Shown: positions 12,700 to 38,739 of the stretch, piece after piece
Numbering within the stretch: position 1 is the stretch's first letter
How the letters are laid out: each line of letters starts with the position of its first letter
DNA from: a virus
Strand: one strand, 5' to 3'
IMG/VR virus record: IMGVR_UViG_3300042396_000723
Coordinates: 1 to 64,000 of that record
Length of the DNA: 64,000 bases
The notes under the pieces: model-generated
What the model was told of the DNA's origin: nothing
Seen by the model: the letters and a program-made list of their open reading frames with translations, nothing else
Databases searched by the model: none
Made by a program: the position numbers and the translations under genes

Positions 12700-13035
12700 C
12701 TAAATATCCCCATTACCTTCATCTTCTAAACTTTGGATATGCTCAAATACTACGCCCGTTTGATAGATTTGTTCATGGAGTGTGGCAATGGCTTTAACCG
12801 TCTCTACTGCCATCCTTCCGTGAATATGCGTCCCTGATTTGGTTAACTTGCCACAGGCTTTCATTGGGTCATCGCTCTTGGATGCTTGACTATAAGCCTT
12901 TGCACTAACAGCAATAGAAGATGATGCGATTACGTCTAACCCACGCAAATAAACCTCCATCCTTTTGATTCCATCCTCAAGATCCTTTTTATACTTCTCT
13001 CTATTTTCCTCAATCATTGATTTAATTGCCTCCAT
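12700..13035 (-). CDS. hypothetical protein (possibly longer, with N-terminal HTH; see findings)
   Basis: 111-aa ATG ORF; 51 in-frame codons upstream encode an HTH-like segment without an ATG/GTG/TTG. Confidence 0.45.
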   Translation of the reverse strand: MEAIKSMIEENREKYKKDLEDGIKRMEVYLRGLDVIASSSIAVSAKAYSQASKSDDPMKACGKLTKSGTHIHGRMAVETVKAIATLHEQIYQTGVVFEHIQSLEDEGNGDI

Positions 13036-13276
13036 TTTTTCGTTAATAATCTCTCGTTTCCTTTCTTCCCAAATGGGTTGTTTTTTCCAGTGTCTTATTA
13101 TCCCTTCTGAAACTCCAATCTGACTGGCAACCTCTCTGTTGGACAGGGATGGGTTGTCAAGAAATGCCTTAACAGCATCTTTGATCAGATGTGCCTTACC
13201 TCCCTTTATTTCGCAACCTTACGCAATAACAACACTTTAAAGTTAACATAGTTGAAAACATTGCTACAACTTAAAT

Positions 13277-13927
13277 ATGAGTAAACTTAAAATTACTGAG
13301 ACTGATATCTCTAAATTGACCCCTGATCCTAACAATGCAAGGAAAAGAACGCCCTTATCAGCAAGCGTTATTAGGAAATCAATTGAACAATTTGGGATGA
13401 CTCGGAGCATTGTCACCGATGAAAATGGCGTTATTTTGGCGGGTAACGGGGCGTTTGAAGAAGCGGGTCAATTGGGTATTGAAAGGGTGATCGTCGTCGA
13501 AACAACGGGTAATGAGATAGTGGCGGTGAAACGGACAAACCTTACTGCCGAACAGAAAACTCAATATGCCATTGCTGATAATACGGCTTCTGATTTCTCA
13601 ACATGGGATTTTGATATTTTGAGTGAGTTAACTCAGGAAATTGATCTATCTGAGTTTTTCCCTGATGATAAATTGAATGAATTATTAAAACAATTGGGGG
13701 ATAGCAAGAATGAAGGTATCAATGTTTTCCCTGATTATATCAACATGGACGATCAGGATGTAGAGACAACAGCAGAAAATTTTAGCTCGAATGTTAAGAG
13801 GAGTATAATTATTGATTTTCCTGCCGATGAGTATGACGAAGCTAAAAAACTATGTAACACAGCAAAGAAAAAAGGAGAAGATATTGGTGCTATTTTAGTA
13901 TCTGCACTAAAAGATGTTTTACAATAG
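13277..13927 (+). CDS. ParB/Srx-fold (ParB N-terminal domain-like) protein
   Basis: N-terminal ISKLTPDPNNARK...VILAGNGAFEEAGQLGIERVIVV resembles the ParB N-domain but with GNGA in place of GERR; acidic C-terminus. Confidence 0.55.
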   Translation: MSKLKITETDISKLTPDPNNARKRTPLSASVIRKSIEQFGMTRSIVTDENGVILAGNGAFEEAGQLGIERVIVVETTGNEIVAVKRTNLTAEQKTQYAIADNTASDFSTWDFDILSELTQEIDLSEFFPDDKLNELLKQLGDSKNEGINVFPDYINMDDQDVETTAENFSSNVKRSIIIDFPADEYDEAKKLCNTAKKKGEDIGAILVSALKDVLQ

Positions 13928-13951
13928 AGAACGAACCAGTAACCTGTACAA

Positions 13952-14746
13952 ATGAAAGAACAAAAATTAATAGTAACAAAACATGACTACAAAAGAAATG
14001 ATAGCCCAACAAGCCTCATTCCGAACGTAGTAGACTCAACTGTATTCCTTGATTCTATCGGTAACAAAGTTGGATTTTATCTCAGGAGTTTGCCGGATGA
14101 TGTTAATGATGTTTTAGAATATTGCAACAAAGAACTAAGAAGTGACAGAGTACCTAAATCGACAATGCACAGACAATTGCCACTGGGAACTAAAAGCAAG
14201 ACAGGAGCGTGGGAATATGATACTGTCGAACAGGAGTCTGTGATAATCGGATCTGTACCCGCAAAGCCTCACCAAAGAAGACCTTTTAATTCAATAAGTC
14301 AAGTTCATTTAAAAAATTCAGCGTCTGCTTTTATTAAAGGAATGATAGTATTAGCAAAGCTGTCAGAGAATCTGATTAAAGATATTATGCCAGAGCAGTA
14401 TTTTATTCAGAAAAAAATAATAGAAGAAAATGTTTTAAAAAAATTTAGATTTGGAGATTTATTTACTAGCTCTATTAGCAATTATAATATAGCTGCTAAT
14501 TATCATCAGGACAATAGAAATCTCAAGAACACTGTAAATGTTATTTACTCAAAAAAAGAAAATGCCAGTGGTGGAAATCTTCATGTGCCAGACTATGATT
14601 TGGTTTTTGATAGTGTTGACGGATCAATGATCTGTTATCCGGCATGGGCAAACTTACACGGAGTTACACCTATTTTACCCACAAAGAAAGGTGGATACAG
14701 GAATGGTATTGTTTTTTATCCATTAGGAGGTTTGCACAAAGAATAG
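13952..14746 (+). CDS. hypothetical protein, possible 2OG-Fe(II) dioxygenase fold
   Basis: C-terminal H-Q-D (YHQD), a distal His (LHGV) about 50 aa later and Arg (YRNGIVFY) fit the HxD...H...R spacing; weak assignment. Confidence 0.3.
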   Translation: MKEQKLIVTKHDYKRNDSPTSLIPNVVDSTVFLDSIGNKVGFYLRSLPDDVNDVLEYCNKELRSDRVPKSTMHRQLPLGTKSKTGAWEYDTVEQESVIIGSVPAKPHQRRPFNSISQVHLKNSASAFIKGMIVLAKLSENLIKDIMPEQYFIQKKIIEENVLKKFRFGDLFTSSISNYNIAANYHQDNRNLKNTVNVIYSKKENASGGNLHVPDYDLVFDSVDGSMICYPAWANLHGVTPILPTKKGGYRNGIVFYPLGGLHKE

Positions 14747-14822
14747 ATAAAAACATATGAATACTACGATTTTGTTGCATATTGAGGTTAACATAATCAT
14801 AAACCCTTCTACAACTTAAAAT

Positions 14823-15470
14823 ATGAGTAAGCCTAAAATTACTGAGACAGGTATCAGCAAGTTGACGCTATCTATTCACGAAACATTTCAACAAACGATT
14901 CAAGGTGAAGGGTTTTGGTCTGGGACTCCGTGCGATTTCATCCGATTACACGGGTGTCCGGTGGGGTGTTGGTTTTGTGATACTGGGTATAGTTCACAAG
15001 AAACAGTTAAGCCTCCATCAAAAACTTTTAAAACTCTCGACAATTTACTCAGGGAGTTAAAATCTGAGCATATTGTGATATCAGGCGGGGAACCTTTTAT
15101 CCATAAAGAGTTGCCCGAATTGGTTGATGCTCTTAATGATGCTGATAAATTTGTTGCGATTGAGACATCAGGGAGTTTTTTTCAACCCGTTAAAGACACC
15201 TGGATAACCCTTTCCCCAAAAGAACATCTAAATGATCGTTACCCCGTTTTAGACGAGCTATGGGGACTCGCTAACGAAATAAAATTAATTATCTCCACAG
15301 GGCAGGAGATTGATTTTTACAAGAAAAAGTTAGATGCGTTAAATATTCCTATCTACTTACAGCCGGAATGGAATGGCATAAATAAAACCCTTCCTTTAAC
15401 AATTGAATTAGTGATAGAATATAAGTATAGACTTTCTTTGCAAACTCACAAATTAATAGGGGTTCAATAA
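14823..15470 (+). CDS. queE: 7-carboxy-7-deazaguanine synthase QueE (radical SAM)
   Basis: TIQGEG followed by CPVGCWFC (Cx3Cx2C) cluster; length 215 aa. Confidence 0.8.
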   Translation: MSKPKITETGISKLTLSIHETFQQTIQGEGFWSGTPCDFIRLHGCPVGCWFCDTGYSSQETVKPPSKTFKTLDNLLRELKSEHIVISGGEPFIHKELPELVDALNDADKFVAIETSGSFFQPVKDTWITLSPKEHLNDRYPVLDELWGLANEIKLIISTGQEIDFYKKKLDALNIPIYLQPEWNGINKTLPLTIELVIEYKYRLSLQTHKLIGVQ

Positions 15471-15880
15471 TGTGGACACTGGTTAAGAAATTCACCTTTG
15501 AAGCGGCACACCAACTAACTAAACATCAAGGCAAATGCTCAAGACTTCATGGACATAGTTGGGTTGGATATGTTTATGTTTCAGGTGATAACCTAAAACA
15601 ATCAGGTAGTGAAGCGGGGATGGTGATGGATTATGGCGAAATTAAAAAAGTTATCAATCTTTTGGTCGATAATTATTTAGACCACCATTTTTTAAATGAT
15701 ACGACAAAACTAGAAAACCCTACCAGTGAAGAAATAGCGAGATGGATTTATGATCGAATCAAGCTCAAGCTCCCAGGACTTACAGCAATCAGAATCGATG
15801 AAACTTGCACAAGTCAATGCTTCTACTCTGAACTCAGTGATTTCTCTAGTAGAATCCGCAATGGTGACATTATGGGGTGA
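15470..15880 (+). CDS. queD: 6-carboxy-5,6,7,8-tetrahydropterin synthase QueD
   Basis: FTFEAAHQL...CSRLHGHSW...LDHHFLND...ENPTSEEIARWIY...ETCTS, hallmark QueD/PTPS motifs. Confidence 0.8.
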   Translation: MWTLVKKFTFEAAHQLTKHQGKCSRLHGHSWVGYVYVSGDNLKQSGSEAGMVMDYGEIKKVINLLVDNYLDHHFLNDTTKLENPTSEEIARWIYDRIKLKLPGLTAIRIDETCTSQCFYSELSDFSSRIRNGDIMG

Positions 15881-36512: not shown

Positions 36513-37949
36513 CTATTTATTAATTAAGACTTTGGACTGAGAGGACTGAGATAATTGAGACTCCCATGCGGGTTTGAGGTAATTCGTGTAACGCTTGTTA
36601 GTAGAACGCGGCTCTATTCCTAACTCGCTACAAATTTGTTTTAGGGGTGATGGAATCAAACCGTGGGAATATTTAAAAGCCCGAAGTTCAAGAGAAGATT
36701 TAAACAGGGCAGTATTAACCTGCTCCCACCAATCACTATCCGGGTCGGTTGATTTGGCACTGGCAAAGGTAACGTTAAATCCTGATAGGTCAGGAATTGA
36801 AACTACTCTTGATTGCCCTTTGATTGTGCAGATAGCGGGTCTTTTCCCTTCCTTGAGCAACCTTTCAGCTATCTCTATTAACCCCGTTTTCTCCCCTGCT
36901 AAATACCGTAACTGCGATTCAGGGATTGATGGGTAGCAGATTATTAATTGAGCTAAATTTTCCAGTGTTGCCAAAGTAAAACCACCCTCACCGACGGACG
37001 CGGATTGACCCACGGGGATTAACTTAATCTTGTAGCCTCTACCCTGCTTAATGATCTCAATTAGCTTATCGAGCCGGGAATTGGTTTTGTCTGACTTGTA
37101 TCGTTCCACGATACTGTCAAATTCTTCGCAGATTAGGCAAATCGGAGTCAGGTCAACTTGAATTTCTGATATCTTTTTGGCTCCGTTTTTGGCTCCGTCA
37201 ACACAAGCCTTAATCCGTTTATCTAATTGGGCGTGAACGTGATCAATTAGGCTATCAATCTCGTCATCGGGTTGCTTGATCCATTCGGTGTCCAACCCAA
37301 ACCAATTATTAAGATAACCGTCATTATCGGGCTTTCCATAGTTCGGGTCAGCAATAAACAGTTGACCATCGGGGTTATTCTCAAGCCATTGACTGATTAT
37401 CAATCCCAGGAGTTTAGATTTTCCCGACCCCGTGCCACCCGTTAGCCTTTGATGTGGCAACGATAGAAATTCGGATACCCAACCCGAATCATCTTTGATT
37501 GATTGAAACTTAGACTTGATTTCCGGTGGGATAGCGCGGATCAACAGTTGAGATGATTTGGCATAACCTTTTTCTCCAAAGTCCCCTAGACTATCCAAAG
37601 CCTGACCAACTCCCCAAACTGTCCAACTAACTGATTTAGCCAAGGTATCGGGGACGGTGCGGGGTAGATCCTCAAGTTTGACCATAGACTCATCCCCTAG
37701 TATCAACCCCGCTAAAGCACCAAGGCATCCCACGCCCGCTAAATATAGAAGGATTGAATTATTAACGGGTTTACGCTCAATTACCAAAACGCTACCCCAT
37801 TCTCCTTTCTGAGATTGGTGGGGTGAGATACCTTTTAAATCCTCAATCTGAACAGTCGCAGCGCTGAATAAACCAATGGCTGAAAATCCTAAACTTGCTG
37901 CAACGGCAACCCCCCAATTATCCTTAGTGAAGTTATTTGGTCTTGCCAT
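36513..37949 (-). CDS. membrane-anchored FtsK/SpoIIIE-like (or coupling-protein-like) P-loop ATPase
   Basis: Two N-terminal TM segments, Walker A LTGGTGSGKSKL, Walker B LICEEFD; start at the ATG preceded by AAGGAGG. Confidence 0.55.
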   Translation of the reverse strand: MARPNNFTKDNWGVAVAASLGFSAIGLFSAATVQIEDLKGISPHQSQKGEWGSVLVIERKPVNNSILLYLAGVGCLGALAGLILGDESMVKLEDLPRTVPDTLAKSVSWTVWGVGQALDSLGDFGEKGYAKSSQLLIRAIPPEIKSKFQSIKDDSGWVSEFLSLPHQRLTGGTGSGKSKLLGLIISQWLENNPDGQLFIADPNYGKPDNDGYLNNWFGLDTEWIKQPDDEIDSLIDHVHAQLDKRIKACVDGAKNGAKKISEIQVDLTPICLICEEFDSIVERYKSDKTNSRLDKLIEIIKQGRGYKIKLIPVGQSASVGEGGFTLATLENLAQLIICYPSIPESQLRYLAGEKTGLIEIAERLLKEGKRPAICTIKGQSRVVSIPDLSGFNVTFASAKSTDPDSDWWEQVNTALFKSSLELRAFKYSHGLIPSPLKQICSELGIEPRSTNKRYTNYLKPAWESQLSQSSQSKVLINK

Positions 37950-38739
37950 CTTTAGCCTCCTTTTCTGCCAATTGTTTAGCCTCAAGTTCTAATTGCTTTT
38001 GAAGGGCCTCAGTCCGCTTCTGCTGCTCGTAGGTTAAAGCTCTAAGTGTCATGGCAACCTCAGAGAACCGACGGACATCACTCGCCAAAACCGAGACATT
38101 AACAGAGGTAAACTTTAATTGAATTTGATCTGCCGATGTAGTTTCCCAATGGCGTTTTAGTGCCAAAAGATTTCCCCAAACCTCAAACAACAAATCAGCC
38201 GCTTGCTTCCGTTCTTTAGGTGAACCGTTAAATTCTCCCTCTAGCGTAGCTTTATCAAGTTTGTTAGCCAGAAAGTTGATTTTCTTAATCAGAAATAACT
38301 CAATAGAAATGGGTTTCTTTTCAATCTCAGAACGAGCTTGCAACAGGAATGTTTCTGCTACCGCTTCACTCAAGTTGTTAACTTGAAAACCTACCTCGTT
38401 TAATGACTTATCTAATAGCTCATTTCGTGCCATTTCTAAGTCAGGGGATGGTTGAAATTCTCCAGAATTATCATTAGCTTCGGTCGAGGTTTCCCCTGTT
38501 GGTTCTACCGTCATTTGCTGAACTTCGGCACTTTCAGCTACGGGAACGTTAGGAGCAAACTTCTTGATAATTCCTGATTTATTCCCGACTAAGGTAATAA
38601 AACTACAAACTGCAATAACTGTTAGTAAAACCGCTACTCGTTTTCGTGTTTTATTAGGCTTTCTAGGTTCCCTCTGAGTGGCTTCTGAATCCCCACTAAA
38701 AGCTGGTAAGTCATCACTAGGCTGTAAACTGTCTAACAT
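37933..38739 (-). CDS. membrane-anchored coiled-coil protein
   Basis: 268 aa; one TM helix (VAVLLTVIAVCSFITLV) then coiled coil. Confidence 0.5.
   Translation of the reverse strand: MLDSLQPSDDLPAFSGDSEATQREPRKPNKTRKRVAVLLTVIAVCSFITLVGNKSGIIKKFAPNVPVAESAEVQQMTVEPTGETSTEANDNSGEFQPSPDLEMARNELLDKSLNEVGFQVNNLSEAVAETFLLQARSEIEKKPISIELFLIKKINFLANKLDKATLEGEFNGSPKERKQAADLLFEVWGNLLALKRHWETTSADQIQLKFTSVNVSVLASDVRRFSEVAMTLRALTYEQQKRTEALQKQLELEAKQLAEKEAKDGKTK

What the first reader, a model, noticed from the sequence alone, without database searches (positions are those of the whole stretch)
13036..13207. HTH-like coding extension with a strong SD but no canonical start codon
The 51 in-frame codons upstream of the 13035 ATG (minus strand) encode AHLIKDAVKAFLDNPSLSNREVASQIGVSEGIIRHWKK, an HTH-like segment, with no ATG/GTG/TTG. 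AAAGGGAGG sits about 10 nt upstream of an in-frame CTG (about 13188). This suggests a non-canonical CTG or ATC start, a decaying gene, or a sequencing-level frameshift.
Basis: seen in the sequence. Interest (0 to 1): 0.4.

Follow-up and report, generated by a model that had tools for sequence, protein, structure and literature searches.

The report
Phage regulator gene lacking normal start
The start-less stretch is the real DNA-binding head of a roughly 169-residue phage protein, and across its whole family that head is conserved while no normal start codon is reliably available, so translation most likely begins at a weak isoleucine-type codon and current annotations cut the protein short.

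Summary
On the minus strand the frame is open from the TAA at 13221-13219 to the ATG at 13035. It holds no ATG, GTG or TTG, and it encodes a helix-turn-helix.

The window is a close relative of Planktothrix phage PaV-LD, and ten independent metagenome contigs carry the identical sequence. Homologues from phages and Planktothrix mobile elements all have this helix-turn-helix fused. It is under purifying selection in this frame only (pN/pS 0.38, against 0.9-1.5 in the other frames). The coding signal starts abruptly at one invariant Ile codon, which is ATA at 13209-13207 here and ATT or ATC elsewhere, never ATG. Ten of 15 lineages with DNA, PaV-LD included, have no in-frame canonical start upstream of it. 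Two distant relatives start with a true ATG one or two residues from that column.

Upstream lies a conserved extended -10 promoter (TGnTAnnnT), followed by a 23-32 nt leader that carries a direct repeat with a 10-nt period.

The most likely mechanism is near-cognate initiation, which would keep a self-regulated DNA-binding protein scarce. AUA is favoured by the family comparison. Gene decay, sequencing error, frameshifting and an ATG-only start are rejected.

The parts
12700..13209 (-). Proposed full coding sequence, 169 codons plus stop. It comprises an N-terminal three-helix HTH, a long helix (residues 45-110) and two further helices.
   Evidence: Databases hold only the 111-aa product that starts at ATG 13035 (P0002).
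13036..13207 (-). The flagged extension, residues 1-58. Helix 1 is at 13156-13200, helix 2 at 13117-13140 and the recognition helix 3 at 13081-13107.
   Evidence: Conserved in all homologues. Pooled pN/pS is 0.38 in this frame against 0.91 and 1.49 in the other frames. No stop occurs in 266 codons across the lineages. AlphaFold pLDDT is 91-93.
13207..13209 (-). ATA, the family-invariant Ile codon and the first column with a coding signature. This is the favoured start codon.
   Evidence: The codon is ATA, ATT or ATC in the 14 distinct lineages tabulated and in L059, and never ATG. Ile occupies this column in 101 of 101 called proteins that reach it. PGAP starts P0049 and P0112 at this codon. 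Distant relatives start with a true ATG 1-2 residues away.
13198..13206 (-). AAGGGAGGT, a Shine-Dalgarno-like sequence (codons K-G-G). It is specific to this lineage.
   Evidence: It is absent from all other lineages.
13183..13188 (-). CTG (13188-13186) and ATC (13185-13183), the alternative near-cognate starts 10 and 13 nt after GGAGG.
   Evidence: Spacings from GGAGG to a canonical start codon of an ORF of at least 50 aa in this window run from 4 to 14 nt. The CTG column is not conserved as a near-cognate codon.
13219..13221 (-). The in-frame TAA that closes the frame 3 codons upstream of ATA.
13212..13226 (-). TTGCG-N5-TTGCG, a direct repeat with a 10-nt period in the leader that ends 2 nt before ATA. 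It is a candidate operator.
   Evidence: It is the only exact copy in the window. The 10-nt periodic repeat is family-wide with lineage-specific units, and 0 of 5000 shuffles reach the observed score.
13240..13248 (-). TGTTAACTT, an extended -10 promoter element (TGnTAnnnT). The predicted transcription start is near 13233.
   Evidence: The TG, TA and T positions are invariant and the n positions are free in all 14 lineages. A pyrimidine-purine step sits at positions 6-7 after the hexamer in all of them. The element lies 29-31 or 37-38 nt upstream of ATH (28 nt in L059).
13264..13269 (-). TTGTAG, a -35-like hexamer 18 nt upstream of the -10 hexamer.
   Evidence: TTGTAG (TTGTAT in L025) is present in all six phage-clade lineages, at 17-19 nt where counted (window, L003, L004, L025, L042). 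It is absent in the element clade, where a terminator hairpin sits there.
13033..13035 (-). The ATG now annotated as the start. It is an internal Met and is not conserved.
   Evidence: The column is R in L003 and H in L027, L029 and L030.
13277..13927 (+). The divergently transcribed ParB-like gene, which shares the 67-nt control region.
   Evidence: PHROG 620, E = 4e-31. The same divergent partner is seen upstream in L005 (216-aa gene) and L059.

Best explanation
The flagged segment is the genuine N-terminal helix-turn-helix domain of a DNA-binding protein of about 169 residues, encoded at 13209-12700 on the minus strand. The mRNA is made from a conserved extended -10 promoter (TGTTAACTT, 13248-13240), and transcription probably starts near 13233. 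That gives a leader of about 24 nt that carries two TTGCG repeats one helical turn apart.

Translation starts at a near-cognate codon, not at ATG, GTG or TTG. The favoured codon is AUA at 13209-13207, read by initiator tRNA as Met. Such a start works at roughly a hundredth of the efficiency of AUG, so the protein is kept scarce.

The tandem repeats between the transcription start and the start codon are probably the operator through which the protein represses its own promoter and perhaps the divergent ParB-like gene. The ATG at 13035 is an internal methionine.

Shown: the domain is translated and selected; canonical starts are absent in most lineages; the Ile codon is invariant; the promoter-like and repeat motifs are conserved. 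Inferred: which codon starts translation, the transcription start site, the low expression level and autoregulation.
For: (1) Homologues carry the HTH fused to the rest of the protein. P0004 covers 98% of the open frame, and the family holds 284 proteins at E <= 1e-3.

(2) Purifying selection acts on the extension only in this frame. Pooled pN/pS is 0.38, against 0.91 and 1.49 in the shifted frames. The 8 codons before the Ile codon give 2.5-2.7 with no third-position excess.

(3) Codons 2-20 hold 0 stops in 266 in this frame, against 23 and 43 in the other frames. All three frames carry stops in the 9 codons upstream. There is no indel between the Ile codon and the WKKxPxW motif in any lineage, whereas the leader length varies by 1-9 nt.

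(4) Ten of 15 lineages with DNA, counting PaV-LD, have no in-frame ATG, GTG or TTG between the upstream stop and the Ile codon. In the other five, canonical codons sit at variable positions inside the promoter or repeat motifs.

(5) The Ile codon is ATA, ATT or ATC in every lineage and is Ile in 101 of 101 called proteins.

(6) NCBI's pipeline independently annotates ATC and ATT at this codon as the start.

(7) The more distant relatives L057 and L060 begin with real ATG codons one and two residues from this column.

(8) TGnTAnnnT, a pyrimidine-purine step at +6/+7 and a fixed 29-31 or 37-38 nt spacing to ATH are conserved. Prodigal's favourite in-frame GTG lies inside that -10 element, so it is probably not transcribed.

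(9) Near-cognate AUA, AUC, AUU and CUG initiate at 0.1-3% of AUG in E. coli (bioRxiv 10.1101/063800).
Against: No experimental data bear on the start (no N-terminal peptide, ribosome profile or mapped transcription start). Conservation of Ile would also be expected for an internal structural residue. About 80% of the called proteins in the Planktothrix element clade do have an in-frame GTG or TTG 13 or 8 codons upstream. These clusters are closely related, and those codons fall inside the -10 and repeat motifs.

In this lineage a strong SD (GGAGGT) lies just downstream of ATA and 10 nt upstream of an in-frame CTG. That geometry favours CTG. The predicted leader hairpin also pairs the ATA while leaving the SD single-stranded. 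Only a weak SD-like TAAGG precedes ATA, and other lineages have none. The promoter and the operator are inferred from sequence conservation alone.
Confidence: 0.5

Rival explanations
1. In this phage lineage translation starts at the in-frame CTG (13188-13186), or less likely the ATC (13185-13183), positioned by the strong SD AAGGGAGGT. The ATA and the seven codons after it would then be leader. The product still contains the HTH and is 7-8 residues shorter.
For: GGAGGT is a 6-nt match to the anti-SD. Its 10-nt spacing to the CTG falls within the 4-14 nt range seen before canonical starts of ORFs of at least 50 aa in this window. A GGAGG in a given 27-nt stretch is expected with probability about 0.02 from the window-wide density. 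The SD is predicted to be unpaired, whereas ATA is paired in the leader hairpin. Codons 2-7 (KGGKAH) differ from the conserved KxFRLD of other lineages. Helix 1 would still keep 11 residues.
Against: The SD and the CTG are found only in the PaV-LD and window lineage. The CTG column is TTA, CTA, GCA or ATA elsewhere. Most GGAGG copies in the window (71 of 88) are not followed by a canonical start codon of an ORF of at least 50 aa. The frame from ATA to CTG has no stop or indel in any lineage. This explanation does not account for how the other lineages start.
Confidence: 0.3
2. Translation starts at a canonical codon in one of the short upstream ORFs and reaches the HTH frame by programmed frameshifting or termination-reinitiation. 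The candidates are ATG 13249, GTG 13235, or the TTGs inside the TTGCG repeats. An example is the TTG at 13216, whose short ORF ends at TAA 13198-13196, just after the SD and 7 nt before the CTG.
For: The short ORFs exist. MLTLKCCYCVRLRNKGR* (from ATG 13249), MLLLRKVAK* and MRNKGR* overlap the start region. In L005 the corresponding ATG is in frame and open. An SD next to a stop codon recalls translational coupling and prfB-type sites (general knowledge).
Against: The frame relation between the upstream (A/G)TG and the HTH frame differs among lineages. The offset is 0 with a stop, or +1, or -1. Several lineages have a stop at codon 4 of the ATG/GTG-TTA ORF. There is no slippery heptamer. Upstream substitutions show no codon periodicity. 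The ATG/GTG lies within or upstream of the predicted -10 element. Coupling to a nearby stop is not conserved, as inspection of the leader sequences shows.
Confidence: 0.06
3. Only the annotated 111-aa protein from ATG 13035 is made. The HTH-like stretch would be an untranslated leader, a relic of a decayed N-terminus, or an assembly error.
For: Gene callers give this product for the window sequence (P0002) and for L004 (P0003), and PaV-LD ORF097L starts at the same ATG. ATG 13035 is the first canonical start in the frame.
Against: pN/pS is 0.38 in this frame across 14 lineages, and 0 stops occur in 266 codons. The Met is not conserved. The sequence is identical in 10 independent contigs and the isolate. 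The HTH folds confidently. Distant relatives with normal ATG starts have the same domain. An extra short isoform from ATG 13035 cannot be excluded, but it cannot be the only product.
Confidence: 0.04

Closest known systems
infC (IF3) and pcnB of E. coli, genes with a conserved AUU start codon
   Same: A near-cognate AUH codon sits at the true N-terminus with no canonical alternative. It is conserved among homologues and is presumably selected because weak, IF3-discriminated initiation sets a low, regulated protein level (bioRxiv 10.1101/063800; mechanism from general knowledge).
   Different: The protein is unrelated, being a mobile-element HTH protein. All three Ile codons are used interchangeably. 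No evidence for IF3 dependence exists here. The start has not been shown experimentally. In this lineage a competing SD plus CTG is present.
Phage terminase small subunit (TerS) N-terminal HTH (Pfam PF10668, NCBIfam NF040601, PHROGs 1889/2606/2538; PDB 2AO9, deposited only as 'a Phage protein (phBC6A51)')
   Same: An N-terminal three-helix HTH followed by long helices. Weak profile hits to residues about 15-60. Foldseek probability is 0.98 to 2ao9 over 72 columns, but E = 0.48.
   Different: All scores fall far below the family thresholds (24.8 against 120 bits; 20.1 against 22). The flanking genes are Bro-N and ParB-like, and no large terminase was found among the ORFs scanned. The family also sits in Planktothrix plasmid-like contigs beside helicase and DUF3854 genes.
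Autoregulated phage or plasmid HTH repressors with operators in their own leader, and extended -10 promoters
   Same: A small HTH protein transcribed divergently from a neighbouring operon. Tandem 5-nt repeats 10 nt apart lie between the promoter and the start codon. The repeat unit changes together with the protein lineage.
   Different: Binding has not been tested. The repeats are direct, not palindromic. No profile match above threshold to a named repressor family.

Membership tests
Genes initiated at a near-cognate AUH codon (infC/pcnB type) | No canonical start codon is available between the upstream stop and the conserved N-terminal domain | tested here: met
   Met in the window and in 9 further lineages of the 15 with DNA, PaV-LD included. 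The other five have canonical codons at variable positions inside the promoter or repeat motifs.
Genes initiated at a near-cognate AUH codon (infC/pcnB type) | A near-cognate codon is conserved at the N-terminal boundary of the coding signal across homologues | tested here: met
   ATA, ATT or ATC in every lineage, and Ile in 101 of 101 called proteins. The coding signature (pN/pS, stops, indels) begins at this codon.
Genes initiated at a near-cognate AUH codon (infC/pcnB type) | The N-terminal Met is demonstrably incorporated at that codon, or a ribosome initiation footprint lies there | not testable with these tools
   Needs proteomics, toeprinting or initiation-site profiling.
Genes initiated at a near-cognate AUH codon (infC/pcnB type) | Expression responds to the IF3 level (discrimination against non-canonical starts) | not testable with these tools
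   Needs an experiment.
Terminase small subunit | Profile score above the curated threshold | tested here: not met
   NCBIfam NF040601 scores 24.8 bits against a cut-off of 120. Pfam PF10668 scores 20.1 against 22.
Terminase small subunit | Encoded next to the large terminase or packaging ATPase | tested here: not met
   The neighbours are a Bro-N protein and a ParB-like, Tet/JBP and QueE/QueD cluster. The only packaging-like ATPase found (FtsK-like, 36516-37985) is 23 kb away. Not every ORF was scanned.
Winged-helix/HTH_24-type transcription regulators | Pfam PF13412 above the gathering score | tested here: inconclusive
   The window protein scores 18.8 against 21.9. Many family members carry a precomputed PF13412 hit. 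Lrp/AsnC HTHs superpose over 36-37 residues only.
Programmed ribosomal frameshift or recoding site | An upstream ORF with a canonical start in a fixed frame relation, and a conserved shift site | tested here: not met
   The frame offset is 0, +1 or -1 depending on lineage, and early stops occur in several.
Sigma-70 extended -10 promoter | TGnTAnnnT with conserved T-12, A-11, T-7 and TG, free middle positions, and a pyrimidine-purine step at -1/+1 | tested here: met
   Invariant in all 14 lineages at a fixed distance from ATH. Only one such motif-plus-repeat combination exists in the window. The transcription start itself was not mapped.

The most novel reading that the evidence does not exclude
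A whole family of DNA-binding regulators of Planktothrix phages and plasmid-like elements is obligatorily initiated at an AUH (Ile) codon and never at AUG. This happens on a short, SD-less leader downstream of an extended -10 promoter. The weak, IF3-scrutinised start, together with a co-evolving tandem-repeat operator, would couple the regulator's level to the host's translational state. This would be a mobile-element counterpart of the infC logic, and it would mean that automatic annotation systematically truncates or mis-extends these genes.
Probability: 0.3. Interest if true: 0.65.

Novelty: new member of a known kind. Interest (0 to 1): 0.5.

Why it matters
Confirmed natural non-canonical start codons in bacteria are very few. 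In E. coli only infC and pcnB are confirmed (bioRxiv 10.1101/063800). A family in which an AUH codon is invariant across lineages only about 35% identical to each other, while AUG never appears there, would be a clean natural case of selection for weak initiation in a virus or mobile element of a bloom-forming cyanobacterium.

The result also has practical consequences for annotation. The reference phage PaV-LD splits this gene into two hypothetical ORFs, 096L and 097L. JGI and Prodigal either truncate the protein to 111-155 aa or extend it into its own promoter. PGAP picks different ATT or ATC codons in near-identical genomes. The true product is an HTH protein placed to control the divergent ParB-like gene and the Tet/JBP and 7-deazaguanine-type genes that follow it. 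It is itself a target of host CRISPR immunity.

Tried and rejected
(1) Frameshifting or readthrough from the conserved upstream (A/G)TG-TTG-TT or ATG-TTA motifs looked attractive at first. The window peptide MLLLRKVAK* resembles the N-terminus of L005. The frame relation differs between lineages, however, and several have early stops.

(2) A leaderless mRNA starting at ATH was considered. The -10 element is 28-38 nt upstream, so the leader is 22-32 nt. Only L005 has an ATG next to the predicted transcription start.

(3) Coupling to a uORF stop codon (AUAA in the window, AUUAA in L027) is not conserved, as inspection of the leaders shows.

(4) A conserved RNA structure or known RNA family in the leader was sought. 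There is no Rfam hit. Only a marginal 4-bp hairpin forms between the repeats, and the MFE folds are not conserved.

(5) TerS identity is sub-threshold, and the genomic context is wrong.

(6) Fold searches found nothing at E <= 0.001 in the PDB or BFVD. The PDB profile search was likewise empty.

(7) No phage-encoded tRNA that might read AUH at initiation is present in the window.

(8) Further copies of the TTGCG-N5-TTGCG operator were sought in the window. None exceeds chance.

(9) A genome-wide habit of start-less genes was tested. Only this ORF qualifies.

(10) The literature holds nothing on this gene. PaV-LD papers concern other ORFs.

Full report
**What is there.** On the minus strand the frame that ends at the TAG 12702-12700 is open back to a TAA at 13221-13219. 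The first ATG, GTG or TTG in it is the ATG at 13035. The 61 codons before that ATG read GCEIKGGKAHLIKDAVKAFLDNPSLSNREVASQIGVSEGIIRHWKKQPIWEERKREIINEK. AAGGGAGGT lies at 13206-13198. An in-frame CTG (13188) and ATC (13185) follow 10 and 13 nt after GGAGG, and an in-frame ATA lies at 13209-13207. The stretch gives weak HTH hits (Pfam HTH_Tnp_1, Phage_terminase and HTH_24, all below threshold; PHROG 4779 at 3e-6). It is the only long ORF in the window with such an extension. GGAGG by itself is not rare: there are 88 copies in the window, and 17 lie in front of a canonical start codon of an ORF of at least 50 aa.

**Origin, and exclusion of artefact.** The region is 90.6% identical to Planktothrix phage PaV-LD. 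In PaV-LD the same start-less extension is present. An extra C in a C-run splits the gene into ORF096L and ORF097L. Ten independent metagenome contigs carry the 214 nt from the promoter motif into the gene without a single difference. A sequencing or assembly error is excluded.

**The HTH belongs to the protein.** A search with the whole open frame found a 183-aa homologue that covers 98% of it, HTH included. It also found another homologue in which the position of Met-13035 is Arg. A profile search found 284 family members, from phage contigs and from Planktothrix agardhii assemblies. DNA was recovered for 15 lineages, PaV-LD included, and later for L059. In the 14 distinct lineages tabulated there is no indel between one Ile codon and the WKKxPxW motif 40 codons downstream. 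Pooled Nei-Gojobori pN/pS for the extension is 0.38 in this frame, against 0.91 and 1.49 when the same DNA is read in the other frames. Codons 2-20 contain 0 stops in 266, against 23 and 43 in the other frames. AlphaFold2 with a 28-sequence alignment gives helices at 4-18, 24-31 and 35-43 with pLDDT 91-93, followed by a 65-residue helix and two more. Met-13035 is not conserved. 'Untranslated leader' and 'decaying gene' are therefore rejected.

**Where the coding signal starts.** The first conserved column is an Ile. Its codon is ATA here and ATT or ATC elsewhere, and never ATG. It is Ile in 101 of 101 called proteins that reach it. The 8 codons before it give pN/pS of 2.5-2.7 with no third-position excess. 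All three frames carry stops there. The distance to upstream motifs varies by single nucleotides. In 10 of the 15 lineages no in-frame ATG, GTG or TTG lies between the upstream stop and this codon. In the others the canonical codon sits at varying positions (2, 6-13 or 18 codons upstream) and always inside a conserved nucleotide motif. Gene callers accordingly produce a 13-aa extension (74 clusters), an 8-aa extension (21) or truncated proteins starting at LLDNP (about 20). More than half of the 50%-identity representatives are N-terminally truncated. NCBI's pipeline annotates ATC (P0049) and ATT (P0112) at exactly the Ile codon as the start, but picks another ATT 12 codons downstream in a near-identical genome. 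Two more distant relatives begin with true ATG codons one (L057, ATG AAA) and two (L060) residues from the Ile column. This places the natural N-terminus of the domain there.

**The upstream element.** All lineages share TGnTAnnnT 29-31 or 37-38 nt upstream of ATH, and L059 has it at 28 nt. The invariant positions are those that matter in an extended -10 promoter (TG, T-12, A-11, T-7). The three middle positions are free. A pyrimidine-purine step sits 6-7 nt downstream in every lineage. The phage clade also keeps TTGTAG 17-19 nt upstream. In the element clade an intrinsic-terminator hairpin abuts the motif instead. In the window this gives a -35 at 13269-13264, a -10 at 13248-13240, a predicted start near 13233 and a leader of about 24 nt. 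Prodigal's in-frame GTG in the 13-aa class is the G-TG of this -10 element.

The leader carries a direct repeat with a 10-nt period (TTGCG-N5-TTGCG at 13226-13212). The periodicity is family-wide: summed run length is 74 at offset 10, against 24-34 at other offsets, and 0 of 5000 shuffles reach it. The unit differs by lineage (AGAAGT in L003, TGCGGA in L005, ACGA in L045, CGAC in L056). The motif is unique in the window. There is no Rfam match.

**Mechanism proposed.** The protein is translated from a near-cognate start. Family-level evidence points to the invariant AUH codon. Such codons initiate at 0.1-3% of AUG in E. coli, and only infC and pcnB are confirmed natural cases there (bioRxiv 10.1101/063800). 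A weak start, an SD-less short leader and a tandem-repeat site between promoter and start fit a scarce, self-repressing DNA-binding protein that shares its control region with the divergent ParB-like gene.

In the PaV-LD and window lineage alone, codons 2-4 spell a strong SD, and an in-frame CTG follows at a workable distance. The leader fold also pairs the ATA and leaves the SD free. I therefore cannot exclude that this lineage has moved its start to the CTG. Either way the start is non-canonical and the HTH is included. My estimates are AUA 0.5, CTG or ATC 0.3, recoding from an upstream ORF 0.06 and ATG-13035 only 0.04.

**Comparison with known families.** Functionally it works like the infC/pcnB type of near-cognate start. 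The two sequence-testable features are met, and the two experimental ones are untestable here. It is not demonstrably a terminase small subunit, because its scores are far below the cut-offs and its neighbours are wrong. Fold and PDB searches give nothing significant. It is a new gene family showing a known phenomenon.

Noticed in passing
L031 153-194 (Ga0209229_10008293), matching window 13067-13108 (minus strand): L031 is a CRISPR array with the 36-nt repeat GTAGCGACTTCCATTAGGAAGAAAAGGTGTTGAAAC. Its first spacer, next to the leader-like flank, is a 42/42 match to the HTH-coding extension (recognition helix and WKKQPIW). A host has therefore acquired immunity against exactly this segment of the phage.
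   Followed up: partly
window 13142-13152 (minus strand) versus PaV-LD: The only differences from PaV-LD in 214 nt are 7 substitutions packed into 11 nt. They change DNPSLSN to DNVDVCN and remove the nearly invariant Pro. This looks like a multi-nucleotide event or an error in the reference, not ordinary divergence.
   Followed up: partly
window 12866-12868 (C-run) versus PaV-LD ORF096L/097L: The PaV-LD record has one extra C here, which splits the gene into two 'hypothetical' ORFs. The ParB-like neighbour is also broken at its 5' end in that record (a 37-aa ORF followed by a TTG-started 374-aa ORF). The reference genome may carry homopolymer errors.
   Followed up: partly
window 13237-13320 and 14782-14866: The control region (-35 and extended -10 on the minus strand) plus the first 15 codons of the ParB-like gene (MSKLKITETDISKLT) is duplicated at about 80% identity in front of the radical-SAM (QueE-like) gene, which starts MSKPKITETGISKLT. 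The second promoter copy points antisense into the 3' end of the Tet/JBP-like gene.
   Followed up: partly
window 13277-15880 (plus strand): Divergent from the HTH gene lies a likely DNA-modification cluster. It comprises a ParB-like protein (PHROG 620), a Tet/JBP-type 2OG-Fe dioxygenase (PF12851, just below threshold), a radical SAM QueE-like protein and a PTPS/QueD protein. The HTH protein is well placed to regulate it.
   Followed up: no
L044-L047, L055 (Planktothrix agardhii assemblies and metagenome contigs): The largest branch of the family is not in phage contigs. It lies in Planktothrix contigs after a terminator hairpin and convergent with large DUF3854, DEAD/ResIII helicase plus DnaJ, or AAA_25 genes. 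These look like plasmid or integrative elements.
   Followed up: partly
L044 3001 versus L046 3001: NCBI's pipeline starts the same protein at the ATC of the invariant Ile column in one P. agardhii genome and at an ATT 12 codons downstream in a near-identical genome. This shows that automatic start calling is unstable for this family.
   Followed up: yes
leaders of L003, L005, L045, L056 versus window 13212-13226: The two copies of the 10-nt-period leader repeat change together between lineages (TTGCG, AGAAGT, TGCGGA, ACGA, CGAC). L056, which has the most divergent helix 2, also has a divergent repeat unit. This hints at co-evolution of protein and site.
   Followed up: partly
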